Made by a program: the position numbers and the translations under genes. Source: Candidatus Woesebacteria bacterium (GTDB lineage Bacteria; Patescibacteriota; Microgenomatia; UBA8517). Taken from it: 64,000 nucleotides of DNA. The notes below the pieces were generated by a model. The model was not told where the DNA came from, made no database searches, and worked only from the letters and a program-made list of their open reading frames with translations. Where the stretch lies: contig CP066693.1 of the NCBI GenBank assembly GCA_016432525.1, positions 849,639 through 913,638 on the forward strand, read 5' to 3'. Positions 32,881-45,501 of this stretch are shown piece after piece (within the stretch, counting starts at the first letter, position 1; every line of letters begins with the position of its first letter).

Positions 32881-33306
32881 ATGGCAGCAAAAAAAGTAAA
32901 AACTATCGTTAAAATTAACCTGAAAGGGGCAGAGGCAACTCCGGCCCCACCTGTTGGTACTGCATTAGGCCAACATGGTATTGCCATTATGGAATTTGTC
33001 AAAGCTTACAACGACAAAACAGCCAGCCTCAAAGGCCAGGTAGTCCCCGCAGTCATCACAATTTACGAAGATCGTTCATTTGATTTTATTATCAAAATGG
33101 CCCCAGTAGCTGATATGATCAAGAAAAAACTAGGAATCGAAAAAGGTTCAGGTAAAGTTCCATCAGTTACAGTCGGCACTCTCACAAAATCTCAAGTCGA
33201 AGAAATAGCCAAAGAAAAAATGCCAGATTTAAATACTGATAATTTAGAGGCAGCAGAAAAAATTGTTGCAGGTACAGCAAGATCGATGGGAGTAAAAATA
33301 GAATGA
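32881..33306 (+). CDS. rplK: 50S ribosomal protein L11
   Basis: MAAKKVKTIVKINLKGAEATPAPPVGTALGQHGI... Confidence 0.95.
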   Translation: MAAKKVKTIVKINLKGAEATPAPPVGTALGQHGIAIMEFVKAYNDKTASLKGQVVPAVITIYEDRSFDFIIKMAPVADMIKKKLGIEKGSGKVPSVTVGTLTKSQVEEIAKEKMPDLNTDNLEAAEKIVAGTARSMGVKIE

Positions 33307-34052
33307 AAAAAGTAAAAGAAGAAAAAAGTTTACCCGCCGACAGAAGGGTCCATATAGCAGGTTTAAAAGGCGGTCAGCGCGTAGTATCAATCTCAGCAGA
33401 ATCAGAACAAAAAGAAACAAAAACTGAAAAAGTGGAGACTAAAAAAGAAACAAAAGAAAAAAAGGAAAGAGCTCGTGGCAAGAAATATCAGAGTTCAAGA
33501 TCAAAAATTGATAAAAACAAATTTTATACAACACCAGATGCAGTCAAAACTTTAAAAGAAATAAGTTATTCCAAATTTGATGAAACAGTCGAACTTCACG
33601 CTCTTGTCAAAAAAGATTCCCTTTCAGTTAATGTCACTCTCCCTCATTCATTTGGCAAATCTAAGGCAATTGAGGTTGCAAACGAAAAAACCATAGAGAA
33701 ACTCGAAAAAGGAAAAGTTGACTTTGATGTTCTTTTATCAACCGCTGATTTCATGCCAAAACTCGTTAAATTCGCAAAAATCCTAGGTCCAAAAGGCCTT
33801 ATGCCAAATCCCAAAAATGGAACACTAATCAAAAAGACATCAGATGCTGACAAATTCGCGTCAAACTCTATGACAATAAAAACCGAGAAAAAAGCTCCTT
33901 TAATTCATACAACAGTAGGAAAACTAAGTATGGATCCAAAAAATCTTGAAGAAAATGTTGAAAGCGCTCTAACAGCAATTAACAAAAGATTAATTCTTAA
34001 AGCCTACTTAAAATCAACAATGAGCCCTTCAATAAAGCTATCACTTAGCTAA
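33303..34052 (+). CDS. rplA: 50S ribosomal protein L1 with a ~55-aa Lys/Glu-rich N-terminal extension
   Basis: L1 homology begins near GKKYQSSRSKIDKNKFYT...FDETVELHA. ATGA overlap with rplK. Confidence 0.85.
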   Translation: MKKVKEEKSLPADRRVHIAGLKGGQRVVSISAESEQKETKTEKVETKKETKEKKERARGKKYQSSRSKIDKNKFYTTPDAVKTLKEISYSKFDETVELHALVKKDSLSVNVTLPHSFGKSKAIEVANEKTIEKLEKGKVDFDVLLSTADFMPKLVKFAKILGPKGLMPNPKNGTLIKKTSDADKFASNSMTIKTEKKAPLIHTTVGKLSMDPKNLEENVESALTAINKRLILKAYLKSTMSPSIKLSLS

Positions 34053-35381
34053 AGGAGTAATCGGATAAACAATAGGAGTACTCTTTTGACCAAATAAAAT
34101 TAAAAGTAAAATTCCAATTCCTAGAAACAAAGTGATAAATATTAAAGTCAAAAACAAATTCGCAATAGAGGCACCCAATCCATATTTTGAATAAATAAAG
34201 GCAGCAGCCCCAAAAATTAAAATTCCATAGACTATCAAAGAAATTACCAAAACCAAAAGAGCAATAAGTGGGAAAAATTGTGAATTAGAATAAATATAAA
34301 AATTTCTGGAAAAATAATTAAATCCTGCAAATATTAATCCTGTATAAAGACTTGCAAATATTGACGATCCCAAACTAACCAAGAAAATAACCACTACTTT
34401 ATTGGTTTTCTCAAAACTTCTACTCTTCAAGATTTTATACAAAACAAATCCAACCAAAGAAACAGTAACTATTACTCCGACAAAAACAGCTATTCCCATT
34501 CCAATTTCTCTGAGGTAAAGTTTTATCTGGCTATCTGCATAAATTCCAGCGACTTTATAAGTTTCGGAAGGTCCCAAAGAAGATGCGTTCTTAATAATAG
34601 CTCCATTACCAATCTGATTATAAAAATTATCAAAACTCGGGCTTGCCGCAGGTGCAGCCGAACCTGCATCCATTTTAAGGCTTGAGACAATCTCATTTGT
34701 TCTATAATTTATCTGCCCCTGTCCACCTTTTAGAAATAAATCAGAGTCAGTTGATATCCCAACCTGCAAATTTTGGATTTTATCATCTACTTTTAAAGTT
34801 TCAAAATTAAAATTCCAAGCTCCCAGTATATTTTTGCTCGCATACCCATTTGCCCTAAAGTAAACAAAAAATGCTCCAGATTTATTTTCTTTAACAGGGG
34901 TAGGTAGGCTAATATTTAATGTATCCCCTTTTAAATTAAAGTCCGCTTTCTGATATTTATTATTTCCGTAATATTGAAAATAATCAGGCTCCTGATACTC
35001 CAAACACGGGGGCTGAATGTAAAGAGTTCCCTGGGGTACTACCCCATATCGAATGCAACTAGGCTCTGCCAGAACTTGATAAACAGTTAAATCGTTTGGG
35101 TTTACTTTTGGAATCTGAAGCTGCATTTCAGAAAGCTGTTTGCTATCCAAATTCGAAAAAACAATCTTGGCAGATACTACTGCCTCCCCATTTCCACGAA
35201 AGGTAACTGAATAGTATTGCGACTGTCCTAAAAAATTAGGATTAGAAGGAGGTCTTCTGACTGGCATTATAGAAGGAGCAATTGTTCCGCTACTTCCAGC
35301 AGATTGAGAATCCTGAGCCAATATCGATCTTGGAAGCAACAAAAAAATGCTAAGTATTATCAAGAATATTTTTTTAACCAT
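34041..35381 (-). CDS. membrane protein: signal peptide, ~280-aa extracytoplasmic domain, C-terminal multi-TM region
   Basis: Hydrophobicity pattern only. Confidence 0.4.
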   Translation of the reverse strand: MVKKIFLIILSIFLLLPRSILAQDSQSAGSSGTIAPSIMPVRRPPSNPNFLGQSQYYSVTFRGNGEAVVSAKIVFSNLDSKQLSEMQLQIPKVNPNDLTVYQVLAEPSCIRYGVVPQGTLYIQPPCLEYQEPDYFQYYGNNKYQKADFNLKGDTLNISLPTPVKENKSGAFFVYFRANGYASKNILGAWNFNFETLKVDDKIQNLQVGISTDSDLFLKGGQGQINYRTNEIVSSLKMDAGSAAPAASPSFDNFYNQIGNGAIIKNASSLGPSETYKVAGIYADSQIKLYLREIGMGIAVFVGVIVTVSLVGFVLYKILKSRSFEKTNKVVVIFLVSLGSSIFASLYTGLIFAGFNYFSRNFYIYSNSQFFPLIALLVLVISLIVYGILIFGAAAFIYSKYGLGASIANLFLTLIFITLFLGIGILLLILFGQKSTPIVYPITPLAK

Positions 35382-35403
35382 TATCTAATTATAAACATCT
35401 AGT

Positions 35404-35796
35404 CTATTCCATTAAAGTATCGTTTGTATAATCTTTTATTAAATTATCCAAAGAAGCCTGTCCTTTACTCTTTTCTTCTACGCTGCCATGCAACAAATCA
35501 TATATATGTAGTATCTGATCCAAATGAACAGAGCCCTCCATATACCATTCCACTACTTTTCTTTTCTTATTTAAAAGTATATGAGTTATGCTTCTTATGG
35601 TAAAATCATGCTCATCATCAAGCTTGGGATCGAATTTTGAACTAATTGATTTAGTCCCTTCCATCACTTCATCCCACCATTCAGGATCAATTTTTTCTAT
35701 AGAAACAACTGGCCAAATTCGTTTGCGCTCGGATGACATATTTGCAATAATCATTGTATCAAATATTGATATGGATGAAGACGTTGCAAGAGACAT
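35404..35796 (-). CDS. hypothetical protein
   Basis: ORF with no recognisable motif. Confidence 0.3.
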   Translation of the reverse strand: MSLATSSSISIFDTMIIANMSSERKRIWPVVSIEKIDPEWWDEVMEGTKSISSKFDPKLDDEHDFTIRSITHILLNKKRKVVEWYMEGSVHLDQILHIYDLLHGSVEEKSKGQASLDNLIKDYTNDTLME

Positions 35797-36049
35797 AAGA
35801 CCTGGTCAAGGTAGAATAGTTTCCAATACTGAAGCTAAACTAAATATGGGGAGAAGCTTCCAAAGAGCAAGACATGAGGGACTAAAATCCAATCCAACAG
35901 AATGGGAAGCAAGTAAACGCCTAGCAAATAAGCCTCCAACCGACAATGAAAGAAAAATCCTTTTTGATGAAAACCCGTCAGATGTTAAAACATATAAAGC
36001 ATCAGGTTTGTCAGATGAAGAAATCTATAATATCTTGAAAAATAGATAG
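35771..36049 (+). CDS. hypothetical small protein (92 aa)
   Basis: Internal ATG at 35771 of the 35588 ORF. Avoids a long antisense overlap. Confidence 0.3.
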   Translation: MDEDVARDIRPGQGRIVSNTEAKLNMGRSFQRARHEGLKSNPTEWEASKRLANKPPTDNERKILFDENPSDVKTYKASGLSDEEIYNILKNR

Positions 36050-36123
36050 ATCTTTGCTACAATACTCTCTACTTGTCCAAAGACAGCAAGCATCAAGTTA
36101 ATTAAGTCTTGCCGAGGAAATAT

Positions 36124-36645
36124 ATGAAAAAACTTGCAAAAAGAGAGTTTGCCGAAAAACTCACCGATAAATTTCAAAAAGCTAAATCTATTGTGTTTGT
36201 GGATTTCGCAAAAATGAATGTGACAATCCAACAAACTCTTAAAAGTGATCTTAAAAAGTCTGATGGTAAGCTTTTAGTCGCCAAAAATACTCTTATAAAA
36301 ATCGCTGGAAAAAATGCCAAGCTTCCAGAAGATTTGCTAACCGATCAAATTTTGTCAGGTCAAACAGCAATTTTAATTGCAGATAAAGACCCAGTTGCCC
36401 CAATTCAAACACTTGGAAAATTCTTAAAAACTTCTGAAATTCCCCAACCCAAAGCAGGAATTGTCGAAGGACAGTTTCAGACCAAAGAGGCAATTATAGC
36501 TATCTCTAAACTTCCTTCTAAAAATGAATTGTTCGCTCAGGTTGTCGGCTCAATTCAATCCCCACTTTATGGTTTGGTTGGAGTTTTGAATGGCAATTTG
36601 CAAAAACTTGTCTGGATCCTGCAAGCTAAAGCAAACGCAAATTAA
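36124..36645 (+). CDS. rplJ: 50S ribosomal protein L10
   Basis: L10 fold. RBS GAGGA before the ATG at 36124 (the 36109 start in the track is a TTG). Confidence 0.8.
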   Translation: MKKLAKREFAEKLTDKFQKAKSIVFVDFAKMNVTIQQTLKSDLKKSDGKLLVAKNTLIKIAGKNAKLPEDLLTDQILSGQTAILIADKDPVAPIQTLGKFLKTSEIPQPKAGIVEGQFQTKEAIIAISKLPSKNELFAQVVGSIQSPLYGLVGVLNGNLQKLVWILQAKANAN

Positions 36646-36691
36646 TATTAATAATAGTATATATTTTTATAGAAGCTAGGAGGTGAGTCAA

Positions 36692-37072
36692 ATGGCAGAA
36701 AAAATAGAAAAATTAGTTAAAAGTATTTCAGAACTTTCAGTTTTGGAGGTATCTGAACTCGTTAAAGAACTTCAAGACAAACTTGGAGTTTCCGCTATGC
36801 CAGTCGCAGCAGCTCCAGCAGCAGCCGCAGCATCTGAGGAAGCCCCAACAGCAAGTGGTGGAGTTCAAACAGTTACCATGACCGCATCCGGTGCAAACAA
36901 AATTGCAGTCATCAAAGCTTTAAGAGAAATTAACCAAAATTTAGGACTCAAAGAAGCAAAAGACATGACAGAAAGTTTACCAGCTAAAGTTGCAGAAAAC
37001 GTTAAAGCAGAAGAAGCAAAAACTTTTGCTGAAAAACTTAAAGCAGCAGGAGCAACTGTTGAAGTTAAGTAA
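36692..37072 (+). CDS. rplL: 50S ribosomal protein L7/L12
   Basis: MAEKIEKLVKSISELSVLEVSELVKELQDKLGVSA...AAGATVEVK. RBS AGGAGG 8 nt upstream. Confidence 0.9.
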   Translation: MAEKIEKLVKSISELSVLEVSELVKELQDKLGVSAMPVAAAPAAAAASEEAPTASGGVQTVTMTASGANKIAVIKALREINQNLGLKEAKDMTESLPAKVAENVKAEEAKTFAEKLKAAGATVEVK

Positions 37073-37074
37073 AA

Positions 37075-37962
37075 CTAAATTATTTTTTCAAAATACTTAG
37101 CAAGTGCAGGTAGTTCTGGAGATATTTTATTATATGTAAAACCAGGGCCTCTATTTACTTCCAAAAGCCATGGTTTTCCTGCTTTGTCTATCAAAACATC
37201 AACTCCAGCTATCTCAAGTTTTAAGACCCTTGAAGATTTTGTCGCTATAGTTCGAATATCTGGCGGCACTTCTTTGGGGTCAAAAAATTCTTCAGATGCC
37301 CCTCGTGCAACATTTGCTCTAAACTCTCTTGGATCATCTTGAATCTTCTTTTCAGCTACAGCAATTCTATCACCCAAAACTAAAAGTCTATATTCGATAT
37401 CTCGCTCGCAATATTTTTGAAACATAAATCCTTCACTTGGATGTTTCTTGCGAAGTTCCATAAAATCATTGCGGTCTTTAAGTAAAAATACACCAATTCC
37501 TCTTTGAGTTTTTGGATTTTTAGAAACTACTGGAAGTCCAAATTTATTAATAATCCGATCAATGTTCTTTTCAATATTTCCTCTTGAACATAAAAATGTA
37601 GGAATTACCGGCAAGTCATTTATTGCAAGCCTAATAAGTGAAGGAAGCTTATCACCAGTATAACTGGCAAAACTAAATACTGAATCTATAAATCCAATAT
37701 GGTAATAATCCATACATATAGATAATGCTTTTGCAATTGAAGAATATCCAAAAGTTTTACGAAAATATATCAAATCAAAATCACGAAGGTCATGCTTTCC
37801 AATATTTACATCAATCTTTCCTCTTTCAAAACTAAACTCAATATCTGAAAAAGATGCCGTCAAAACATCAACTTTTCCTTTTAAATCATGTTTTACATGT
37901 GAATAAATACTATCTTTTGTTTTCTCCTCTTTGCCCATTAAAATTAGAAGCTTTTTTTTCAT
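37075..37962 (-). CDS. RimK-like ATP-grasp ligase (paralog 1)
   Basis: PVVSKNPKTQRGIGVFL and GVDVLIDKAGKPWLLEVNRGPGF ATP-grasp signatures. Confidence 0.75.
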   Translation of the reverse strand: MKKKLLILMGKEEKTKDSIYSHVKHDLKGKVDVLTASFSDIEFSFERGKIDVNIGKHDLRDFDLIYFRKTFGYSSIAKALSICMDYYHIGFIDSVFSFASYTGDKLPSLIRLAINDLPVIPTFLCSRGNIEKNIDRIINKFGLPVVSKNPKTQRGIGVFLLKDRNDFMELRKKHPSEGFMFQKYCERDIEYRLLVLGDRIAVAEKKIQDDPREFRANVARGASEEFFDPKEVPPDIRTIATKSSRVLKLEIAGVDVLIDKAGKPWLLEVNRGPGFTYNKISPELPALAKYFEKII

Positions 37963-38062
37963 TACTCAGATTATATGCTTAAAAAATTAATAACACAAAA
38001 AAATGCCACGTATTTGGTGTAATTTGCCAATATACGTGGCTAACTAAAATATTAAAACAGAT

Positions 38063-38665
38063 TCATACGAGTCGACCGGTCAGGAAAAGCCAGATAGCCC
38101 AAACCGTCTCTTGCGAAACAGAGGCCAAGACCTTGGTCGGCGGCTCATAAGCCAAAAAGGTGGTGTCTATGATCCTAAGAGCCTCATCATTCCCAGCGTT
38201 GGACTTCCTGAGCCACTTCCAAACCCTACGATTCAGGTTGGGAATGAACTTCGGGTCATCAGTAACGACATAAAAAAGCAGATCAGCCGCCCACTGATGA
38301 GCACCACGGCCTTCTGTGCCGGGAATCGGCTCACCAGTTTTATTGCTGACAATCTTTGTGCTCTCACCCTGCATGGAATCATCACAGAGATTAATCAGTC
38401 TCTCAAGTGTCTCCTTGCCCAAAATTGCCTCCATAGCAGGTCCACGCCCGGTCGTAATCGACCGAAATTGGGTCTCCTCCCGGATTTGCCTCATTACCTT
38501 TGGTCCCAGTTTGTCTGGATCAAGGTTGTAACCCAAGATGGTAAGCCATACCCGCATTGCCGTAAGCTGATCAAAGCTAAAAAATTCAATCGGATACGGA
38601 TTCTCTGAGTTAACTAAATTGAGAATAATCCGATCAATTTCTTCACGAATATCTTTAGGTGCCAT
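38063..38665 (-). CDS. hypothetical protein (200 aa), GC-rich, embedded in the ATP-grasp array
   Basis: Clearly higher GC than its neighbours. No recognisable motif. A 9-bp perfect inverted repeat lies downstream (38005..38040). Confidence 0.4.
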   Translation of the reverse strand: MAPKDIREEIDRIILNLVNSENPYPIEFFSFDQLTAMRVWLTILGYNLDPDKLGPKVMRQIREETQFRSITTGRGPAMEAILGKETLERLINLCDDSMQGESTKIVSNKTGEPIPGTEGRGAHQWAADLLFYVVTDDPKFIPNLNRRVWKWLRKSNAGNDEALRIIDTTFLAYEPPTKVLASVSQETVWAIWLFLTGRLV

Positions 38666-38734
38666 TTCTTCCTCCAGGCTACTTAGCCTTAGAATATAGA
38701 ATAGTAAACATATTATATCATACTACAGGATAGT

Positions 38735-39622
38735 TTAACTACTTTGAAGAGTCTCAAAATATTTAATGATTTCGAGAGCTGCATTTACGCTCGTATATTT
38801 TTCCAGACCTTCAAACTGAGGGGCTGGATTTACCTCAAGTATATATGGCTTGTCAGTTTCTTTATTTATCATAATATCAACTCCTGCAATTTGAGTTCTC
38901 ACAACAGCTGCTACACTCTCGGCCAATTCTCTAACATCCGCTCGACTATTCAAATCAAAATTAGAACCCATCCCTCCTTGACTGATATTACTTCTAAACT
39001 CCCCGATCTTTGGAGTTCTCTTCATGGCCCCAACTGCTTTATACCCAACACAAAAAACTCTAATATCTCCATCGTTTGGAATAAACTCTCTTACAACAAA
39101 CGATAAAGAACTTTTAAGTATTTCGGAAGCCCTAGCTTTAAGCTCATTCATATCATTTGCCTTAAATACACCTTTACCTTTTCTTCCATCACTTCTTTTA
39201 ATAATGATTGGAAATTTAAATTCACCAGAAAAATTATCTAAAAATTTTATTGAAAAGAAAAGAAAGCTTCTTGGATATTGAAAGTTATTTTGAGTTTGCC
39301 TTAAATAATCTATGGCAGGAGTTAAAAAATAATTATACGTTGGGTCAATCACCTTCTTATTTACTATTATGGTTTTATATTTCTCCGCTAAATATAAAAA
39401 CGCTGTATACCATTCCCATCTTCTTTTGCTAGTTAGGGAATAAACTAGATTATATGAGGACAAATCATGTCCAGTTAGAATTGGTTTAAATTCATTAGTT
39501 GATGTATCAATTATAAGATCAGATGAAAGAGATCCCAAAACTTCATGTCCTCTTTTTTTACCTTCTTCAGAAAGTCTTTCAAACTGAATTCCTTTTGTAA
39601 GTCCAACAATAAGTATTTTCAT
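38735..39622 (-). CDS. RimK-like ATP-grasp ligase (paralog 2)
   Basis: FPIIIKRSDGRKGKGVF and GVDIMINKETDKPYILEVNPAPQF. Confidence 0.75.
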   Translation of the reverse strand: MKILIVGLTKGIQFERLSEEGKKRGHEVLGSLSSDLIIDTSTNEFKPILTGHDLSSYNLVYSLTSKRRWEWYTAFLYLAEKYKTIIVNKKVIDPTYNYFLTPAIDYLRQTQNNFQYPRSFLFFSIKFLDNFSGEFKFPIIIKRSDGRKGKGVFKANDMNELKARASEILKSSLSFVVREFIPNDGDIRVFCVGYKAVGAMKRTPKIGEFRSNISQGGMGSNFDLNSRADVRELAESVAAVVRTQIAGVDIMINKETDKPYILEVNPAPQFEGLEKYTSVNAALEIIKYFETLQSS

Positions 39623-40491
39623 TTTGCATTTGCAATTGCGTGTTCAACATAAACTTTCCCAATATTCTTTGAATATGCCTTTTCCATCCCGATAAAACCA
39701 GCAGTATGATTAACCTCCAATAAATATTTTTTGTTTTGCTTATCAATCAAGATATCTACTCCAGCAACGCTCATGTCAACAGCTTTTACGGCCAAATTAG
39801 CCAGTTTACGGCTTTCGCTATCAAGCTCAATAGTTTCAACACTTCCACCAAGAGAAAAATTTGCTCTAAACTCACCCTGCCCTGGAATTCTTCTCATTGG
39901 AAAAATCTCCCCTCCGATAACCAAAGCTCTAATATCATATTCATAATCAATGAATTTTTGCGCTATAAAACTTTTTGCTTCTTTTCCCTCTTCCTGAAGT
40001 TTCGAAATAAGATCGTTTAGTTCGTTTTGATTATTTAGCTTATATACAGAAGCCCCCTTGCCCATCCTGGATGATTTAAAAACAAATGGAAATCCTAAAG
40101 TTTGAGATGCTTTTTTATAATCTTCAAAATCCCTAGAATAAAAGCTGTCTGGAATAGGTAAATGATTAATATTAAGCCTCAATATATCACCGATTTTATC
40201 GATTGAATATTGATGTTTGAGTACATTATTGTCAAAAATCTTTATTCCTCTTTCCTTAAGCGCCACTATAACATTTGAGATAGATTTTATTGATGTAAAT
40301 ATCCCCCTAACAATTGCGATATCACAATTTAAATTATCTAACTTATCTACATTTAGTTTGTTATCAATTATAGAAAATTTAAATTCCGATAGATCAACGA
40401 GCTCAAAATCATGTCCCAAAGCACGTATTTCTTCTTCAATTCTTTTGTTTTCATCAAGACTTGTTAAAGTTGTAATAAGAGATATCTTCAT
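39619..40491 (-). CDS. RimK-like ATP-grasp ligase (paralog 3)
   Basis: FPFVFKSSRMGKGASVY and GVDILIDKQNKKYLLEVNHTAGF. 4-bp overlap with paralog 2. Confidence 0.75.
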   Translation of the reverse strand: MKISLITTLTSLDENKRIEEEIRALGHDFELVDLSEFKFSIIDNKLNVDKLDNLNCDIAIVRGIFTSIKSISNVIVALKERGIKIFDNNVLKHQYSIDKIGDILRLNINHLPIPDSFYSRDFEDYKKASQTLGFPFVFKSSRMGKGASVYKLNNQNELNDLISKLQEEGKEAKSFIAQKFIDYEYDIRALVIGGEIFPMRRIPGQGEFRANFSLGGSVETIELDSESRKLANLAVKAVDMSVAGVDILIDKQNKKYLLEVNHTAGFIGMEKAYSKNIGKVYVEHAIANAK

Positions 40492-40507
40492 TTTTATTAT
40501 TTGTGAT

Positions 40508-41845
40508 TCATACCTGTTTATGACTCCAAAGCTTCTGATACCAATCCGCGCTTTTGTCTATCTGCTTTGGACTAACCAAAAATCCTGACAAATCTCGTCT
40601 TCCTATTATAATCTGAGATCTTAAATTTGATCTATTTGCTAAACTTGCAATCGTAACAATTTTCCTCCCAGCTAGATAGAATGTCAAATTGATAACTGTT
40701 CTATTTTCCTTACCCAAGCCACTTTTTACCTTTTTCGACCATAAAATATTTTCTTTTGTTACGAGTCCCAGTTTTTTTGCCAAGTCCCTATCCATTGAAG
40801 TTCTCCATGCACCAGTATCAATTTTTGCAATCATTTCGTGTTTCTTGCTACTGTTGGATACCACTTTTATTTTTTCCCAAGTATTAATTGTTTTAATTCC
40901 ATCATCAGGAATTACTCTGTTTCCAAATCTTTCTCCAAAGATAGCTTTGGCTATCTTTACAGCATGCTCGCTATCTCTTACTTCCAAATCCTCTACACGA
41001 TCCAATCTTTTTTTAAGACCAGCCATATTGGCAAGTTGAATTTGAAGTCCGGGTCGTGCATTTAACTCCAATATCATAGGCCCATCAGTTGGATGAAGTA
41101 TAATATCCACACCAACATATCCAAGCCCACAAGCTTCAGCAGTTTTAGATGCAAGATCCAAAATCTTATTCCATTGAGGAATTTTAATTCCATTGAGCTT
41201 TCGCTTTGTATCAGGCTTGTAAATTATCGGATTTCCATGATAAATTGCCCGTGTTGTAATACCAGTTGCAATATCAATTCCAACAGCAACCGCTCCTTGA
41301 TGAAGATTTGCTCTTCCTCCTGATTCCTTTGTAGGGAGTCTGAGCATTGCCATAACCGGAATTTTGTTAAAAACAATAACACGGATATCAGGTGTTCCGC
41401 GATACGCATATCGCAAAAATGCCTTATGTCTTCCAACATATTCCTGAATAAATGCAACGTCAGGCACATTTCCAAGGCTATAAGCCCCTTCCAAAATATC
41501 AACAACCTTAAGCTTCAAGTCCTCAACTGTAACTCTCTCTTTTTGCGTTGTAACCCACCCGTTTCCATCTCTAGCCTTTCTTTTAATAACTACGATTCCC
41601 TCGCCTCCAAATCCTCTGCTTGGTTTTAATACAAAACTACTGGGTAATTTTTCCCAACTAAAATCAGTTATATCCGCCAAACTTTTGAATCTTTTGTAAA
41701 CCATTGGGGTTGGAATTTTAGCCCTTTTCAAAACTCTATACATCTGAAGTTTTGAATCAGCGATTCTTTTTCCAACTCTTGAATTATATTTATATAAATA
41801 AAGCTGCGATCTTGCATTGAGTCCCAATATTGAAGAAATTTTCAT
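40508..41845 (-). CDS. ATP-grasp ligase (paralog 4) fused to a C-terminal retropepsin-like aspartyl peptidase domain (RimB/'ATP-dependent Zn protease'-like)
   Basis: N-terminal ATP-grasp (VLKPSRGFGGEGIVV ... GVDIILHPTDGPMILELNARPGL). C-terminal KIDTGAWRTSMD (DTGA) retropepsin-like signature. Confidence 0.65.
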   Translation of the reverse strand: MKISSILGLNARSQLYLYKYNSRVGKRIADSKLQMYRVLKRAKIPTPMVYKRFKSLADITDFSWEKLPSSFVLKPSRGFGGEGIVVIKRKARDGNGWVTTQKERVTVEDLKLKVVDILEGAYSLGNVPDVAFIQEYVGRHKAFLRYAYRGTPDIRVIVFNKIPVMAMLRLPTKESGGRANLHQGAVAVGIDIATGITTRAIYHGNPIIYKPDTKRKLNGIKIPQWNKILDLASKTAEACGLGYVGVDIILHPTDGPMILELNARPGLQIQLANMAGLKKRLDRVEDLEVRDSEHAVKIAKAIFGERFGNRVIPDDGIKTINTWEKIKVVSNSSKKHEMIAKIDTGAWRTSMDRDLAKKLGLVTKENILWSKKVKSGLGKENRTVINLTFYLAGRKIVTIASLANRSNLRSQIIIGRRDLSGFLVSPKQIDKSADWYQKLWSHKQV

Positions 41846-41864
41846 AATTTATTACAAGCTTTGC

Positions 41865-42674
41865 TTATTTTGACTTAATCAGTTTTCTAAATCGATAGTA
41901 TTCCAAAAATCTTAAACCCGAATATTTTCCAATTACAAAATCCAAAACAGCAACTCCTATCAAAAGAATTTCGGGATGAGCAAGAGCAAAACTTCTCAAA
42001 ACCTGAGTAACCAAAAGAAGGTATGACAAAAAACCCAAAAACAGTGTTTCTGCTGTTATCTTGATGGCTGTTTTCCCAGATTTTCCAAGTTGAACTCTTG
42101 TAAAATCCTCAGACAAAAGAACCAAAACAAGGACAGGGAAAATAGATACATTTGCTATGTCAATTCTTCCGATTACAGGAGTTAAAAATACAAGTCCGAG
42201 TAAACATACTGCAATTGCCCAAAGTATAAATGCCATACGAGGAAGATATTGCAACCTAACCTTGGCATCCCTCAAAAAGACACGCGTAAATGTAGACACA
42301 AAAACAATTATTAGAAATAAAATAATTCCAATCAAAGGGCCTATTGATAAAAATACAACAGAAAGCGCTGCAGGAAGTAAAATTCCAAAACCTCGAATAC
42401 CAACTATGTGGCGAATTGCAGCAATCAAAGATGCAACCAGAGGTAATAATAGAAGAAGAGTTATAGTATCCGAAGACACTCCTGATGCAATCGCATAGGA
42501 AATCGCATAAGATATAACATTCCCAGGCCAAAAAGCCGATGTCCCAGCCAAAAATCTATTAGCAATAAAAAAAGTTAAAACAAATGTTGCCAAAAAAAAG
42601 GTAAGAAGTGTTACTTTTCGAAGGGTTGTCATGGAAATAAGCTCCAAAATTATACCATTTTTTGAAGATGTCAA
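41865..42674 (-). CDS. polytopic (about 7-8 TM) membrane protein heading the ATP-grasp operon
   Basis: Seven to eight hydrophobic helices. Sits where 7TM partners of RimK-like/peptidase systems are described. Divergent from the rSAM gene. Confidence 0.45.
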   Translation of the reverse strand: MTSSKNGIILELISMTTLRKVTLLTFFLATFVLTFFIANRFLAGTSAFWPGNVISYAISYAIASGVSSDTITLLLLLPLVASLIAAIRHIVGIRGFGILLPAALSVVFLSIGPLIGIILFLIIVFVSTFTRVFLRDAKVRLQYLPRMAFILWAIAVCLLGLVFLTPVIGRIDIANVSIFPVLVLVLLSEDFTRVQLGKSGKTAIKITAETLFLGFLSYLLLVTQVLRSFALAHPEILLIGVAVLDFVIGKYSGLRFLEYYRFRKLIKSK

Positions 42675-42810
42675 GCCACTTGCTCTTGTTTTTGGTCCAC
42701 CAAAATCCGCAAACTTGATTCAAGTGATATAATAATCTATAGGATATTAGAATAATATCTTTTATTTCAAAAGCACATTCACATATTAGTTGTAGCGAAA
42801 GCAGGATCAA

Positions 42811-43929
42811 ATGAACGAATGGATATTCAGGACTTTCAGTCCAATAATAAAAGTCGTTGGAGCGGGATGTAATTTAAGATGTACATACTGCTTCTACTTT
42901 GGACATCAGCCAAAGATAAATATAATGGGAAATGATGTGTTGAAACTAGTATTAAGCGAGTGTCTTCAAGCGGCGTCTTTCGTTAGATTCATCTGGCACG
43001 GAGGTGAACCCACAATAGCAGGAGCAGAATATTATCGAAAGATACTTGCCATAGAAGACAAAGTTCGTAGAGATGGTCAAAAAGTTACTCATAGTATACA
43101 AACCAATGCTACGCTTTTAAATCCTCAATGGATTGATCTTCTTAAATCCAAGAGATTCTCTATCGGAGTAAGCATTGATGGGCCAGAATACCTCCATAAT
43201 TTTGCTAGAATCAACGCAAACGGTCGCGGATCATTTAGAGAGGTTCAAAAAGGTATCGTGCTATTTCGGAATGCAGGAATAAAATTCGGCTCAATCGCTG
43301 TAGTCAATAGTTACACAGTGAATTTCCCTGAAGAAATATTCTGGTTTATGTACAATCAGAAAATTTCCTTTAGTGCTAATGCGTGTGTAGCATATCCTAG
43401 CGATCCAGAGGAGGTCAGACAATTAACAATAAGCCCAATGCAATTCTCTAATTTCCTTCTTCGATTGTTAGATCTATGGCTAAAAACAGATGATCCAACA
43501 TTCAACATCAAGCCATTAGATGACATAATCAAAGGAATATTAGGACGACAACCTTCTCTGTGTAGATATCGCGGACAATGTCAAATGTATCTAACAATAG
43601 ACTCCAATGGAGATGTTTATCCATGCGATGAGTATCTAAATCAAAATTACAACTTTGGCAACCTAAGACAAACGCCATTGAAAAAAATTGTTCAAAGCAC
43701 AAACCTCAATGAGTACTATGCAGGCAGAACAATCATGCAAACTGTCTGTCAAAACTGTCAATGGTTCAATATCTGCAAAGGAGGCTGTATGAGAGAATGG
43801 GGCGGTTCTAAATCCATTACCGACCCTAGAGAAACGGAATTCTGCAAAGCTCGACAGTTTCTGTTCGAGGAAGTAAGAGATCGAATTCAGCTATTGGGAT
43901 ATTCCAAAAAGGAGATTCTAAATGTCTGA
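42811..43929 (+). CDS. radical SAM enzyme with C-terminal SPASM domain (peptide-modifying maturase type)
   Basis: CNLRCTYC (CxxxCxxC) near the N-terminus. C-terminal CQNCQWFNICKGGC (Cx2Cx5Cx3C) plus additional auxiliary-cluster Cys. Confidence 0.9.
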   Translation: MNEWIFRTFSPIIKVVGAGCNLRCTYCFYFGHQPKINIMGNDVLKLVLSECLQAASFVRFIWHGGEPTIAGAEYYRKILAIEDKVRRDGQKVTHSIQTNATLLNPQWIDLLKSKRFSIGVSIDGPEYLHNFARINANGRGSFREVQKGIVLFRNAGIKFGSIAVVNSYTVNFPEEIFWFMYNQKISFSANACVAYPSDPEEVRQLTISPMQFSNFLLRLLDLWLKTDDPTFNIKPLDDIIKGILGRQPSLCRYRGQCQMYLTIDSNGDVYPCDEYLNQNYNFGNLRQTPLKKIVQSTNLNEYYAGRTIMQTVCQNCQWFNICKGGCMREWGGSKSITDPRETEFCKARQFLFEEVRDRIQLLGYSKKEILNV

Positions 43930-44167
43930 CATACTCATATCCACAATCAGATGCGTGGCAATCCCACCTCCGTCTCACATCGGTCCTTCTCAAATCGTAA
44001 ACGCTCTTTTGGCAAACAGCAGCCCTCTTGCTATAAATGCCAATATGCCTGCAATAGACGGCGAAGAGGATTGGGACGACGATTGGGACGATAGCTGGTC
44101 GGAACATTCAGATGGGCCAAGCTGGGGTGACGGCGACCAATGGAGTGATTCCACTCACAATCCATAA
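43922..44167 (+). CDS. candidate RiPP precursor peptide (81 aa) with five Trp-x-Asp/Glu repeats
   Basis: ATG overlaps the rSAM stop (atgtctga). Leader-like N-terminal half, then core EEDWDDDWDDSWSEHSDGPSWGDGDQWSDSTHNP. Confidence 0.55.
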   Translation: MSDILISTIRCVAIPPPSHIGPSQIVNALLANSSPLAINANMPAIDGEEDWDDDWDDSWSEHSDGPSWGDGDQWSDSTHNP

Positions 44168-44272
44168 CGTCGAAAACTACAACATAGTATGCTAAAATAA
44201 AAAGCCTGGATCCTACTTGCTCTAAACAAAAGTGGGATCTGGGCCTCTCTGAAACGAGAGATACAAAAAATT

Positions 44273-45277
44273 ATGAATCTCAACTTCCGAATTACAAAAA
44301 CTTCTAATCTTTTTCATTTCATCTCAAATCTAACTAACTGGCATTTCAGTGTTAGACCTTCATACAAAAGATACTGGTTAGAAAAAACTGGTCCACTTAC
44401 AAAAAAAGAGGAAGAAACACTTCAAGAAGTAGATTCTTTATTTAAAAAATACAATTTTGGTCCCAATTACTGGGGACACGTACTATTAACAGAAGAAGAT
44501 GAAATTGTTTGGGAAAAAGCAAATAAAAAATTTGGGGCAAAAGATACCGAAAAATTCAGGCATTTTGAAAAAGTATTTTCAAAAAGATTTGAAAAAATCT
44601 GGACAGAAGACAAAAACAAATTAACTGAATGGAAAAAAGTATTAGAAAGATCAAATCAAAATAAAACTTCTGATAAACTTATTGAAACTCTAAATTCATT
44701 ATTTGGAAAAGACGGGGGCGGAGAGGTGATTGATGTAATCTTACTATTAAGCACTCCTAACACACGAGGTGCTGGTGGTGGAAATCTAGCTCCTCGCGCT
44801 ATTACATTGGAAGTATCTCAAACTCCAGACCAGTATACTACTAACGTTCAACTTATGCTTTGGCACGAACTTGTTCACGTAATTTGGGAAAAAGGACCGT
44901 ATCAAAAAACATTCAATAACTTTCACGAAAAGTTATTGAATTCAGGAGCTCTATCTCCTGTAGAAAATGTCCCATTAAGAGTTACACTCAACGAAGCTGT
45001 AATGGAATCCCTCTTACCTTATGGATATCTTGGATATAAATATTTCAATTATAAAAGTAAAGATTACTTCAATGAAATACTTTCGAAACTTGAAAACAAT
45101 TTCGACAAGAATCAAGTGATGATATATTGGCGAGTATATTCTGCCAACAAACTTTTTGAATTATCTCAAAATTATTGTGAAAGAGGAAAAGCAATTGATA
45201 AAGACTTTTTAGAAAAGGTTGTAAAAATAATGATTGAATTTATTAATAAAAGGTGGAGTCTATCAACCAATCCCTGA
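44273..45277 (+). CDS. hypothetical protein with an HExxH motif (WHELVH); possible metallopeptidase
   Basis: LMLWHELVHVIWE. Immediately downstream of the precursor. Confidence 0.35.
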   Translation: MNLNFRITKTSNLFHFISNLTNWHFSVRPSYKRYWLEKTGPLTKKEEETLQEVDSLFKKYNFGPNYWGHVLLTEEDEIVWEKANKKFGAKDTEKFRHFEKVFSKRFEKIWTEDKNKLTEWKKVLERSNQNKTSDKLIETLNSLFGKDGGGEVIDVILLLSTPNTRGAGGGNLAPRAITLEVSQTPDQYTTNVQLMLWHELVHVIWEKGPYQKTFNNFHEKLLNSGALSPVENVPLRVTLNEAVMESLLPYGYLGYKYFNYKSKDYFNEILSKLENNFDKNQVMIYWRVYSANKLFELSQNYCERGKAIDKDFLEKVVKIMIEFINKRWSLSTNP

Positions 45278-45291
45278 AACTTTAAAGGACA

Positions 45292-45501
45292 TTACCCTTG
45301 TTTCTGTATCCCTAAAATCCACAAAACAGCTTCTTTTTTGTAACGTCTGTCTCCTCTTGAATTAATCCTAATCGGAGGAAGTTTACCTCTTTTGCCCCAC
45401 CTCTTAATAGTAAGGGGAGAAACTCTTAGAAGTTCTGCAACCTCCCTTACTGTCAATAAATCTGGCAGTTCATCAAGGTTGATCTTCTTTTTACTATTCA
45501 T
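45292..45501 (-). CDS. small helix-turn-helix DNA-binding protein (excisionase/MerR-like HTH)
   Basis: LLTVREVAELLRVSPLTIKRW HTH signature. 69 aa. Confidence 0.55.
   Translation of the reverse strand: MNSKKKINLDELPDLLTVREVAELLRVSPLTIKRWGKRGKLPPIRINSRGDRRYKKEAVLWILGIQKQG

What the first reader, a model, noticed from the sequence alone, without database searches (positions are those of the whole stretch)
37075..42674. Array of four RimK-like ATP-grasp ligases (one fused to a retropepsin-like DTGA peptidase) plus a 7-8TM protein, divergent from the rSAM/precursor operon and inserted where rpoB normally follows rplL
Four consecutive minus-strand genes (37075, 38735, 39619, 40508) each carry both halves of the ATP-grasp signature (xKPxxGSxGxGV ... 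GVDxLIDKxxKxYLLEVNxxPGF). The fourth has a C-terminal domain with KIDTGAW, matching the aspartyl-protease signature of retropepsin-like peptidases, which are known partners of RimK (RimB in Pseudomonas rimABK). The operon starts with a polytopic membrane protein (41865..42674) whose promoter region is shared divergently with the rSAM gene (42675..42810). Established knowledge: RimK-type ATP-grasps add amino acids (typically Glu) to carboxylates of proteins or peptides. Graspetide ATP-grasps make Asp/Glu-to-Ser/Thr/Lys macrolactones/lactams. Inference: the Asp/Ser/Thr/Trp-rich peptide next door is a plausible common substrate. That would make this a hybrid RiPP system (rSAM crosslinks plus ATP-grasp ligation or macrocyclisation), or alternatively a peptide-tagging system acting on the adjacent L7/L12-L10 products. 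A fourfold expansion of the ligase is unusual.
Basis: partly seen in the sequence, partly recalled or inferred. Interest (0 to 1): 0.8.

Follow-up and report, generated by a model that had tools for sequence, protein, structure and literature searches.

The report
Rlo-like ligase-protease operon in Woesebacteria
This is a conserved operon of tiny "candidate phyla radiation" bacteria that joins a membrane protein, four amino-acid-ligating enzymes and a built-in protease. It is a new variant of the recently described Pseudomonas Rlo/Rim systems and is not a partner of the radical-SAM peptide genes next door.

Summary
Window 37075-42632 (minus strand) carries a six-gene operon:
- a 7TM protein (PF14402);
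- an ATPgrasp_ST/RloC-like ligase fused to a C-terminal retropepsin domain (PF05618, DTGA);
- three RimK-family ligases;

All four ligases keep the ATP-grasp catalytic residues.

The interpretation does not hold.
- In 80 related Patescibacteria loci the 7TM + fusion pair is adjacent in 79. Most also carry one to four extra RimK-like genes.
- In 39 loci the array lies tail-to-tail with rplL, so the position is ancestral in Woesebacteria, not an insertion.
- None of these loci has the rSAM enzyme, the 81-aa peptide or the 334-aa protein, even at E ≤ 1. Nor does L084, the closest relative, which has an identical six-gene array.
- That trio is therefore the strain-specific insert.
- The three RimK paralogs are 24-28% identical and each has orthologs elsewhere, so they are old, distinct enzymes.

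Best reading: a Rlo/Rim-type module that builds acidic, probably Glu-type, peptide chains at the membrane and trims them. The retropepsin keeps the three basic residues that bind polyglutamate in RloA. The product and acceptor are unknown.

Novelty: new variant of a known kind. Interest is moderate.

The parts
41865..42632 (-). First gene of the array: a polytopic membrane protein of 255 aa from the ATG (an upstream TTG at 42674 would give 269 aa). It is a 7TM_transglut / RloB-like membrane module without the periplasmic inactive-transglutaminase domain.
   Evidence: PF14402 at 1.6e-22, 80.6 bits against a cutoff of 25. The NCBIfam RloB model matches only profile positions 311-507 of 508, at 56.5 bits against a cutoff of 900. 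Gene callers give 255 aa. The 120 best homologs are 208-320 aa and carry PF14402 only. The AF2 model is all-helical with pLDDT 81 and has no PDB fold match with E < 1. It sits directly upstream of the fusion gene in 79 of 80 loci, with a median gap of 7 bp.
40508..41845 (-). Fusion protein of 445 aa. The N-terminal part is an RloC-like ATP-grasp amidoligase (aa ~3-301, nt 40943-41839). The C-terminal part is a RimB/RloA-like retropepsin domain (aa ~320-425, nt 40571-40888), with DTGA at aa 343-346 (nt 40808-40819).
   Evidence: PF14397 at 1.9e-69 and TIGR02291 at 284.6 bits against a cutoff of 314.2. The AF2 model has pLDDT 80.5, with best PDB fold hits RimK 5zct (1e-9) and ArgX. A profile of the C-terminal domain hits RloA structures 9G59/9G58. 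37 of 38 homologous domains match PF05618. D[TS]G is kept in 73 of 77 homologs. K341, D343, R382 and R405 are invariant in 38 homologs.
39619..40491 (-). RimK-family ligase 'RimKc' (290 aa).
   Evidence: TIGR00768 at 144.2 bits against a cutoff of 143.4, and PF08443 at 7.7e-25. PDB sequence hits are ArgX 3vpb (1.5e-15) and Pseudomonas RimK 7qyr (2.1e-14). Catalytic K139/R188/D246/E259/N261 are present. It forms its own clade with orthologs in other Woesebacteria.
38735..39622 (-). RimK-family ligase 'RimKb' (295 aa). It overlaps RimKc by 4 nt.
   Evidence: PF08443 at 2.8e-30 and TIGR00768 at 133.9 bits, below the cutoff of 143.4. K142/R188/D249/E263/N265 are present. It is 28% identical to RimKc and 24% to RimKa, and forms its own clade.
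38063..38665 (-). Lineage-specific 200-aa protein embedded in the array, with no known family.
   Evidence: No Pfam, NCBIfam or PADLOC hit. Only three clusters were found among 5.8 billion proteins. Weak but syntenic homologs lie at the same position in L005, L074 and L084.
37075..37962 (-). RimK-family ligase 'RimKa' (295 aa), the most divergent of the three. Its stop codon lies 2 nt from the stop of rplL.
   Evidence: PF08443 at 5.6e-18 and TIGR00768 at 90.4 bits, below the cutoff. K148/R192/D255/E268/N270 are present. Its clade has the most orthologs among Woesebacteria loci.
45292..45501 (-). MerR/HTH_17-type 69-aa DNA-binding protein on the same strand as the array. It is a possible regulator or first gene of the ancestral operon, now separated from the array by the inserted plus-strand trio.
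   Evidence: PF13411 at 1.2e-11. Its ortholog lies -33 to +312 bp upstream of the 7TM gene, co-directional, in L004, L005, L011, L012, L013, L023 and L041. In L084 the ortholog is 88% identical.

Best explanation
This is the Patescibacteria (CPR) version of the Rlo/Rim type of amino-acid ligase plus retropepsin system. The source genome is a Candidatus Woesebacteria bacterium.

**Shown**
- The core is a membrane 7TM protein followed by a cytoplasmic RloC-like ATP-grasp ligase that carries its own RimB/RloA-like aspartic peptidase at the C-terminus.
- Three old, mutually divergent RimK-family ligases and a small lineage-specific protein are co-oriented downstream. Gaps of -4 to 100 nt suggest co-transcription.
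- All catalytic motifs are intact.
- The module is conserved across CPR classes and is independent of the neighbouring rSAM/peptide genes.

**Inferred mechanism**
- The ligases use ATP to form acyl-phosphates and add alpha-linked amino acids, most likely Glu or other acidic residues, onto a carboxylate.
- The carboxylate could be a growing free peptide or the C-terminus of an unidentified acceptor.
- This probably happens at the membrane, on or next to the 7TM protein.
- The dimerising retropepsin domain cuts the acidic chain, which would set its length or recycle it.
- The different RimK paralogs probably add different residues or act at different steps, such as priming versus elongation.
- The 7TM partner may export, anchor or sense the product. 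Its role is the least supported step.
For: **Family assignments**
- All six genes have been assigned as described above.

**Ligase fold and residues**
- The best fold matches of the fusion model are RimK (a poly-alpha-glutamate synthetase) and ArgX/LysX.
- The catalytic K/R/D/E-x-N residues are kept in all four ligases.

**Retropepsin domain**
- Its profile hits the RloA crystal structures, and PF05618 matches 37 of 38 homologous domains.
- DTG is kept in 73 of 77 homologs.
- K341, R382 and R405 are invariant.
- They align with RloA K-x-D, RPVI and DRS. These correspond to K46, R114 and R137, with the same 23-residue R-R spacing.
- K46, R114 and R137 are the residues shown to coordinate polyglutamate. 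R114A and R137A have the strongest effect on polyE cleavage and fail to complement in vivo (PMC12239564).

**Published precedents**
- RimB trims polyglutamate tails and stimulates poly-alpha-Glu synthesis by RimK.
- A RimB-RimK hybrid protein is proteolytically active (PMC11957791).
- Loss of rloB or rloC suppresses loss of the RloA proteases. This implies that the ligase and membrane protein make what the protease removes (PMC12239564).

**Comparative genomics**
- The 7TM + fusion pair is adjacent in 79 of 80 loci, from Woese-, Shapiro-, Beckwith-, Collier-, Levy-, Kaiser- and Moranbacteria and Paceibacterota.
- Extra ATP-grasp genes follow the pair in 61 of 68 loci.
- The exact set RimKc-RimKb-(200 aa)-RimKa recurs in L005 and L084, and without the 200-aa gene in L023.
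- The four loci where the retropepsin has NTG in place of DTG are exactly those that carry a MATCAP/QEGLA-type metallocarboxypeptidase gene right after the fusion gene. This fits a ligase-plus-peptidase pair working on a C-terminal tail.
Against: - No substrate, product or acceptor is identified, and no protein with an acidic C-terminus is encoded in the array.
- Amino-acid specificity cannot be read from the sequences.
- The 7TM protein has no solved structural relative and lacks the transglutaminase-like domain of RloB, so an export or anchoring role is a guess.
- The biochemical function of RloBC itself is unknown in Pseudomonas.
- The D. psychrophila RimBK hybrid did not glutamylate SBW25 RpsF, so homology to RimK does not guarantee polyglutamylation.
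- Accessory genes in other loci leave room for a cell-envelope small-molecule or peptidoglycan-related product. These genes include a SAM methyltransferase, a GNAT, a PBP1-like protein and a glycosyltransferase-like protein (the last two assigned from sequence only).
Confidence: 0.6

Rival explanations
1. Hybrid RiPP pathway. The ATP-grasp ligases modify the Asp/Trp-rich 81-aa peptide together with the divergently transcribed rSAM/SPASM enzyme, either by macrolactone/lactam formation or by adding Glu.
For: The two gene sets are adjacent and divergent, with a 178-nt intergenic region. The peptide has an acidic C-terminal half. The rSAM enzyme resembles peptide-modifying maturases such as DynA and DarW.
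Against: - No homolog of the rSAM enzyme, the peptide or the 334-aa protein appears at E ≤ 1 in any of 80 related loci, nor in L084, the nearest relative, which has the identical six-gene array.
- The slot between the MerR-like gene and the 7TM gene is empty in seven relatives. It holds an ABC exporter in at least eight others and an IS200-like transposase in one.
- The ligases are 40-78% identical across genomes that lack the peptide, so their substrate must be something those genomes share.
- Graspetide models score far below their cutoffs.
- Gaps within the array are 100 nt or less, which leaves no room for a hidden precursor gene.
Confidence: 0.03
2. Ribosomal-protein tagging. The RimK paralogs glutamylate S6 (the canonical RimK substrate) or the adjacent L7/L12-L10 stalk proteins, and the retropepsin removes the tails, as RimB does.
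For: The genes belong to the RimK family. The convergent neighbourhood with rplL-rplJ-rplA-rplK is conserved in 39 of 80 loci. RimK/RimB act on RpsF in Pseudomonas.
Against: - The ribosomal genes are on the opposite strand, tail to tail, and the linkage is absent outside Woesebacteria/Microgenomates.
- L7/L12 ends in ...VEVK, not in Glu.
- The invariant partner is a polytopic membrane protein, which has no role in known ribosome modification.
- The core ligase is RloC-type. In Pseudomonas the Rlo system is genetically distinct from Rim: deleting rimB does not interact with rloA mutants.
- rpsF is not in the window, so its C-terminus could not be checked.
Confidence: 0.12
3. Cell-envelope precursor ligases. 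The ATP-grasp enzymes build a non-ribosomal peptide stem or decoration on a lipid-, sugar- or peptidoglycan-linked carrier held by the 7TM protein, comparable to Ddl or the pseudomurein ATP-grasp ligases. They would not be making a polyGlu chain.
For: - Pfam names PF14397 'sugar-transfer associated ATP-grasp'.
- Rlo mutants have cell-shape, ampicillin and hypo-osmotic phenotypes, and the Vibrio orthologs are controlled by the cell-wall stress regulator VxrAB.
- Some Parcubacteria-type loci carry a PBP1-like protein and a glycosyltransferase-like protein, or a 780-aa ATP-grasp fusion, downstream.
- There are weak hits to Ddl and to pseudomurein ligase models.
Against: - The retropepsin keeps the residues that bind polyGlu in RloA. 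Such a peptidase is not expected on a short stem peptide.
- The envelope-gene neighbours are lineage-specific, not general.
- The best fold matches are RimK and ArgX, which act on protein or peptide C-termini.
Confidence: 0.2

Closest known systems
RloABC operon of Pseudomonas aeruginosa (retropepsin-like osmotic stress tolerance; mBio 2025, PMC12239564)
   Same: The same three protein families sit in one operon: a 7TM_transglut membrane protein (PF14402), an ATPgrasp_ST/TIGR02291-type cytoplasmic ligase and a PF05618 retropepsin. The catalytic Asp and the polyGlu-coordinating Lys/Arg/Arg are conserved.
   Different: - The membrane protein lacks the periplasmic inactive-transglutaminase domain.
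- The retropepsin has no signal peptide. It is fused to the C-terminus of the ligase, so it must be cytoplasmic rather than secreted.
- One to four additional RimK-family ligases are appended.
- The host is a monoderm-like CPR bacterium, whereas the paper reports 96% of RloB hits in Proteobacteria.
RimK/RimB and the RimBK hybrid of Desulfotalea psychrophila (JBC 2025, PMC11957791)
   Same: A cytoplasmic RimK-family alpha-L-amino-acid ligase is paired or fused with a retropepsin that cleaves polyglutamate. The three downstream genes are RimK-family by Pfam.
   Different: - In RimBK the protease is N-terminal and the ligase is RimK proper. Here the protease is C-terminal and the ligase is RloC-type.
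- The Rim systems have no membrane partner.
- The RpsF target is unverified here.
LysX/ArgX amino-group-carrier ligases
   Same: Among the best sequence and fold matches of the RimK paralogs and the fusion model (3vpb, 3vpd, 5k2m).
   Different: No LysW carrier gene and no LysY/Z/J/K genes are nearby. Scores are far below the equivalog cutoffs.
Graspetide (omega-ester/amide) ATP-grasp maturases
   Same: ATP-grasp fold, with a distant fold match to PsnB.
   Different: There is no conserved precursor peptide, and model scores are about 10% of the cutoff. The only nearby peptide is strain-specific.

Membership tests
RloABC system | RloC-type ATP-grasp (PF14397 / TIGR02291) | tested here: met
   PF14397 scores 234.4 bits against a cutoff of 31.4, covering profile positions 2-277 of 278. 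TIGR02291 scores 284.6 bits, slightly below its equivalog cutoff of 314.2. Family membership is therefore met, but strict equivalog status is not.
RloABC system | RloB: inactive transglutaminase domain fused to 7 TM helices | tested here: not met
   Only the 7TM half is present. PF14402 scores 80.6 bits. NF052267 matches profile positions 311-507 of 508 only, at 56.5 bits against a cutoff of 900. CPR homologs are 208-320 aa with PF14402 alone.
RloABC system | RloA: stand-alone secreted retropepsin with an N-terminal signal peptide | tested here: not met
   The domain is homologous but is fused to the C-terminus of the cytoplasmic ligase, so it has no signal peptide of its own.
RloABC system | The three components encoded together in one operon | tested here: met
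   The 7TM and fusion genes are 19 nt apart in the window and adjacent in 79 of 80 loci.
RimK family (TIGR00768 / PF08443) | Profile score above the curated cutoff | tested here: met
   PF08443 scores 65.7, 105.8 and 88.0 bits against a cutoff of 21 for RimKa, RimKb and RimKc. TIGR00768 is reached only by RimKc (144.2 against 143.4). RimKb (133.9) and RimKa (90.4) fall below it.
RimK family (TIGR00768 / PF08443) | ATP-grasp catalytic residues (ATP-binding Lys, Arg, and the Mg-binding Asp and Glu-x-Asn) | tested here: met
   All are present in the three paralogs and in the fusion protein.
RimK family (TIGR00768 / PF08443) | Adds Glu to the C-terminal Glu of ribosomal protein S6, or makes poly-alpha-Glu | not testable with these tools
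   rpsF is not in the window. This needs biochemistry.
RimBK hybrid | RimB domain at the N-terminus of a RimK-proper ligase | tested here: not met
   The domain order is reversed and the ligase is of the ATPgrasp_ST type.
Graspetide biosynthetic cluster | Graspetide-clade ATP-grasp next to a conserved precursor peptide | tested here: not met
   TIGR04187 scores 37.3 and 21.4 bits against a cutoff of 350. The peptide is absent from all related loci.
LysX/ArgX amino-group-carrier pathway | LysW-type carrier and LysYZJK genes nearby, with the equivalog score reached | tested here: not met
   TIGR02144 scores at most 112 bits against a cutoff of 275.6. There is no unassigned ORF or space in the array.
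Known anti-phage defence systems | Match to a PADLOC model | tested here: not met
   No hits for any of the six proteins.

The most novel reading that the evidence does not exclude
CPR bacteria may run a ribosome-independent, multi-ligase assembly line. It would consist of an RloC-retropepsin fusion plus up to four distinct RimK-type ligases docked on a 7TM protein. It would make a defined or mixed acidic peptide polymer for the cell surface or for osmotic/charge homeostasis. That would be a so far undescribed class of bacterial peptide product and a lineage-wide trait of these minimal, episymbiotic cells. It would also reveal what the unexplained RloBC proteins of pathogens synthesise.
Probability: 0.25. 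Interest if true: 0.75.

Novelty: new variant of a known kind. Interest (0 to 1): 0.45.

Why it matters
- A streamlined CPR version offers an independent handle on that chemistry. It has the protease fused to the ligase, no transglutaminase-like domain, and a variable set of extra ligases and peptidases.
- The module is strongly conserved: the fusion protein is 62-78% identical within Woesebacteria and 40-49% across CPR classes. These genomes lack most biosynthesis, so spending four ligase genes on it suggests an important envelope or homeostasis function.
- For the scan itself, the result removes a false link. The rSAM/peptide cluster should be judged on its own.

Tried and rejected
- **Hybrid RiPP link.** Rejected on synteny.
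- **Reverse test.** I looked for close relatives of the rSAM enzyme in JGI metagenome contigs. The scan returned only one relative at 24% identity, with no array. This is uninformative.
- **Insertion boundaries.** No flanking direct or inverted repeats mark the rSAM-peptide-334-aa insert, and there is no clear GC shift.
- **Promoter and terminator scans.** The number of sites does not exceed the shuffled expectation.
- **Fold of the 7TM protein.** The model is confident (pLDDT 81), but there is no PDB match with E < 1.
- **Retropepsin domain versus PDB.** As a single sequence it gave nothing. Only the profile worked.
- **The 200-aa protein.** There is no family match, and only three clusters turned up in the large database. 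Profile iteration added only L005 and L074. A possible link to the ~195-aa 'c13' proteins of other loci, suggested by eye, was not confirmed.
- **Defence system.** No PADLOC hits.
- **RNA elements.** Rfam found only tRNAs in the window.
- **Iyer et al. 2009 (PMC3268129).** This paper defined these Pfam families, but it is not held in the library. What it says about this gene neighbourhood could not be checked.

Full report
**What is there**

Between 37075 and 42632 the minus strand carries six co-oriented genes. The gaps between them are 19, 16, -4, 69 and 100 nt.
- **41865-42632:** a polytopic membrane protein. It has 255 aa from the ATG used by gene callers. It matches PF14402 7TM_transglut at 1.6e-22.
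- **40508-41845:** a 445-aa protein. Its first ~300 residues are an ATPgrasp_ST / TIGR02291 "alpha-L-glutamate ligase-like" domain (1.9e-69 and 7.8e-85). Its last ~125 residues carry KIDTGAW.
- **39619-40491, 38735-39622 and 37075-37962:** three RimK-family ligases (PF08443 at 7.7e-25, 2.8e-30 and 5.6e-18).
- **38063-38665:** a 200-aa protein with no family match, lying between the last two ligases.

The exact proteins occur in a Candidatus Woesebacteria bacterium assembly, GCA_016178105.1.

**Are the enzymes intact?**

I aligned 126 RimK-like sequences from the window and related loci. The columns that are 99-100% conserved in the family are the ATP-binding Lys, an Arg, and the Mg-binding Asp and Glu-x-Asn. 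All are present in the three paralogs and in the fusion protein.

An AlphaFold2 model of the fusion protein has mean pLDDT 80.5. It has two well-folded parts joined by a disordered linker at aa 305-317. Its best PDB fold matches are E. coli RimK (5zct, 1e-9), ArgX/LysX and Pseudomonas RimK.

The C-terminal domain is weak as a single sequence. PF05618 scores 21.6 bits against a cutoff of 27, and a single-sequence search of the PDB found nothing. The family-level evidence is clear:
- 37 of 38 homologous domains match PF05618.
- A profile built from them hits the RloA crystal structures 9G59 and 9G58 at 2.3e-9 and 7.3e-8. The mBio paper identifies those entries as RloA.
- D[TS]G is kept in 73 of 77 full-length homologs.

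**The known system it resembles**

NCBIfam names the best matches RloA3 and RloB. The rlo operon of P. aeruginosa has three components:
- a secreted retropepsin, RloA;
- an inactive-transglutaminase/7TM protein, RloB;
- a cytoplasmic ATP-grasp, RloC.

Loss of the three RloA paralogs is lethal in low-salt medium, and deleting rloB or rloC suppresses that lethality (PMC12239564). RloA cleaves runs of at least 8 Glu. K46, R114 and R137 coordinate the polyGlu chain, and R114A and R137A have the strongest effect on activity.

In the CPR domain the equivalent residues are K341 (K-x-DTG), R382 and R405. They are invariant in 38 homologs. They align with the RloA residues and show the same 23-residue spacing between the two arginines.

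The related cytoplasmic pair RimK/RimB adds and trims polyGlu tails on S6. RimB also stimulates free poly-alpha-Glu synthesis, and a RimB-RimK hybrid protein exists (PMC11957791).

**How it differs from the known systems**
- The membrane protein has only the 7TM half of RloB. The profile matches positions 311-507 of 508, and all 120 best homologs are 208-320 aa.
- The retropepsin is fused behind the ligase and so must act in the cytoplasm.
- The domain order is the reverse of RimBK.
- Extra RimK-family ligases are appended.

**Comparative genomics**

One scan of GTDB species genomes returned 80 loci, all from Patescibacteria-type MAGs. I annotated them with the window's proteins.
- The 7TM gene directly precedes the fusion gene in 79 of 80 loci, with a median gap of 7 bp. 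The remaining locus starts inside the operon.
- These loci span Woese-, Shapiro-, Beckwith-, Collier-, Levy-, Kaiser- and Moranbacteria and Paceibacterota. Fusion-protein identity ranges from 40% to 69%.
- Among the 68 loci with at least 4 kb downstream, the number of RimK-like genes after the fusion gene is 0 in 12, 1 in 11, 2 in 31, 3 in 13 and 4 in 1. Eight loci carry a ~480-800-aa ATP-grasp fusion protein. Only seven have no extra ATP-grasp gene at all.
- The window's three paralogs are 24-28% identical to each other. Each falls in its own clade with orthologs from other genomes. They are old, distinct subfamilies, not a recent expansion.
- The same order RimKc-RimKb-(~200 aa)-RimKa recurs in L005 and L084, and without the 200-aa gene in L023.
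- In 39 of 80 loci the array ends tail-to-tail with rplL-rplJ-rplA-rplK. The position is therefore ancestral in Woesebacteria/Microgenomates and not an insertion in this genome.

**The rSAM/peptide neighbour**

None of the 80 loci contains a homolog of the rSAM enzyme, the 81-aa peptide or the 334-aa protein, even at E ≤ 1. Nor does L084, the closest relative (fusion protein 78% identical, all six array genes present).

In this window a MerR-like 69-aa gene lies beyond the trio, at 45292-45501. Its placement in relatives varies:
- In seven relatives it sits -33 to +312 bp upstream of the 7TM gene, on the same strand.
- In at least eight others an ABC exporter gene occupies the slot.
- In one, an IS200-like transposase does.

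The 2.6-kb rSAM-peptide-334-aa trio is therefore a strain-specific occupant of a variable slot. No boundary repeats were found. A reverse search for close rSAM relatives in metagenome contigs found only one distant hit, with no array.

In addition, graspetide and LysX models score far below their cutoffs, and the array has no room for a hidden precursor gene.

**A supporting pattern seen in passing**

In four loci (L073, L078, L081, L082) the retropepsin motif reads NTG instead of DTG. These are exactly the four loci where a MATCAP/QEGLA-type metallocarboxypeptidase gene follows the fusion gene. This suggests that one peptidase replaces the other. It fits a system that adds and removes residues at a C-terminus.

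**Mechanism**

The shown facts are the gene content, the intact catalytic motifs, homology to RloC/RloA/RloB-7TM and RimK, wide conservation in CPR, and independence from the rSAM genes.

The rest is inferred:
- The ligases build alpha-linked, probably acidic, amino-acid chains on a free peptide or on an unknown acceptor's C-terminus.
- The work happens at the membrane, next to the 7TM protein.
- The fused retropepsin, acting as a dimer like other retropepsins, limits or recycles the chain.
- The paralogs differ in residue or step.

The role of the 7TM protein is unknown. Its model is confident, but it has no solved structural relative.

Three rivals remain:
- Ribosomal-protein tagging is disfavoured by the convergent, lineage-limited linkage, the Lys C-terminus of L7/L12 and the obligatory membrane partner.
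- Envelope-precursor peptide ligation stays plausible, because Rlo phenotypes are envelope-related and some loci carry PBP1-like or glycosyltransferase-like neighbours.
- The hybrid RiPP reading is close to refuted.

**Verdict**

The proposed link to the rSAM/peptide genes and the "unusual insertion/expansion" framing are not supported.

The locus is a new variant of a known kind: an Rlo/Rim-type ligase-retropepsin system. It is widespread and strongly conserved in CPR bacteria, and its product is unknown. Interest is moderate (0.45). It would rise if the multi-ligase array proves to make a distinct peptide polymer.

Noticed in passing
window 42811-45277 (+): The rSAM/SPASM enzyme, the 81-aa Asp/Trp-rich peptide and a 334-aa protein form a compact plus-strand trio that is absent from every related locus examined. 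The 334-aa protein contains an HExxH motif (WHELVH), so it may be a metallopeptidase belonging to that peptide system. No flanking repeats mark the insertion.
   Followed up: partly
L073, L078, L081, L082 (fusion gene and the gene after it): In these four loci the retropepsin motif is NTG instead of DTG. Exactly these four carry a MATCAP/QEGLA-type metallocarboxypeptidase gene (PF08014, TIGR02421) directly after the fusion gene. This suggests replacement of one peptidase by another.
   Followed up: partly
L008, L015, L017, L018, L026, L029, L046, L051 (about 1.8-2 kb upstream of the 7TM gene); L020:2038-2724: The slot between the MerR-like gene and the 7TM gene holds a divergently oriented ABC exporter (ABC_membrane + ABC_tran, ~576-602 aa) in at least eight relatives, and an IS200-like transposase in L020. 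The exporter could be functionally linked to the array's product. This was not tested.
   Followed up: partly
L021, L024, L025, L038, L040, L054 (downstream of the fusion gene); also L067, L070, L077: A ~780-aa protein (about 480 aa in the Parcubacteria-type loci) stands where the RimK paralogs usually are. It has a biotin-carboxylase-like ATP-grasp domain and an unassigned C-terminal half.
   Followed up: partly
L013, L020, L022, L028, L030, L031, L032, L034, L036, L039, L045 (between RimK-like genes): A ~200-230-aa SAM-dependent methyltransferase (PF13649) is embedded in the arrays of eleven relatives, at about the position where this window has its unrelated 200-aa protein. Other loci have a GNAT or a DUF3541 protein there instead.
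   Followed up: no
window 34041-35381 (-): A 446-aa protein with an N-terminal signal-like segment and C-terminal TM helices is encoded on the opposite strand between rplA and rplJ, interrupting the rplKAJL cluster. Homologs sit at the same place in L021, L024, L025, L045, L074 and L084. It has no family match.
   Followed up: no
window 32881-37072 (+): rplK-rplA ... rplJ-rplL is not followed by rpoB/rpoC anywhere in the 64-kb window, and the same holds in 39 related loci. Separation of rpoBC from the stalk-protein genes appears to be a lineage trait.
   Followed up: partly
window 37072-37075: The stop codons of rplL (+) and RimKa (-) are only 2 nt apart, and no terminator-like hairpin was detected between them. 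Convergent transcription would therefore run into the opposite gene.
   Followed up: no
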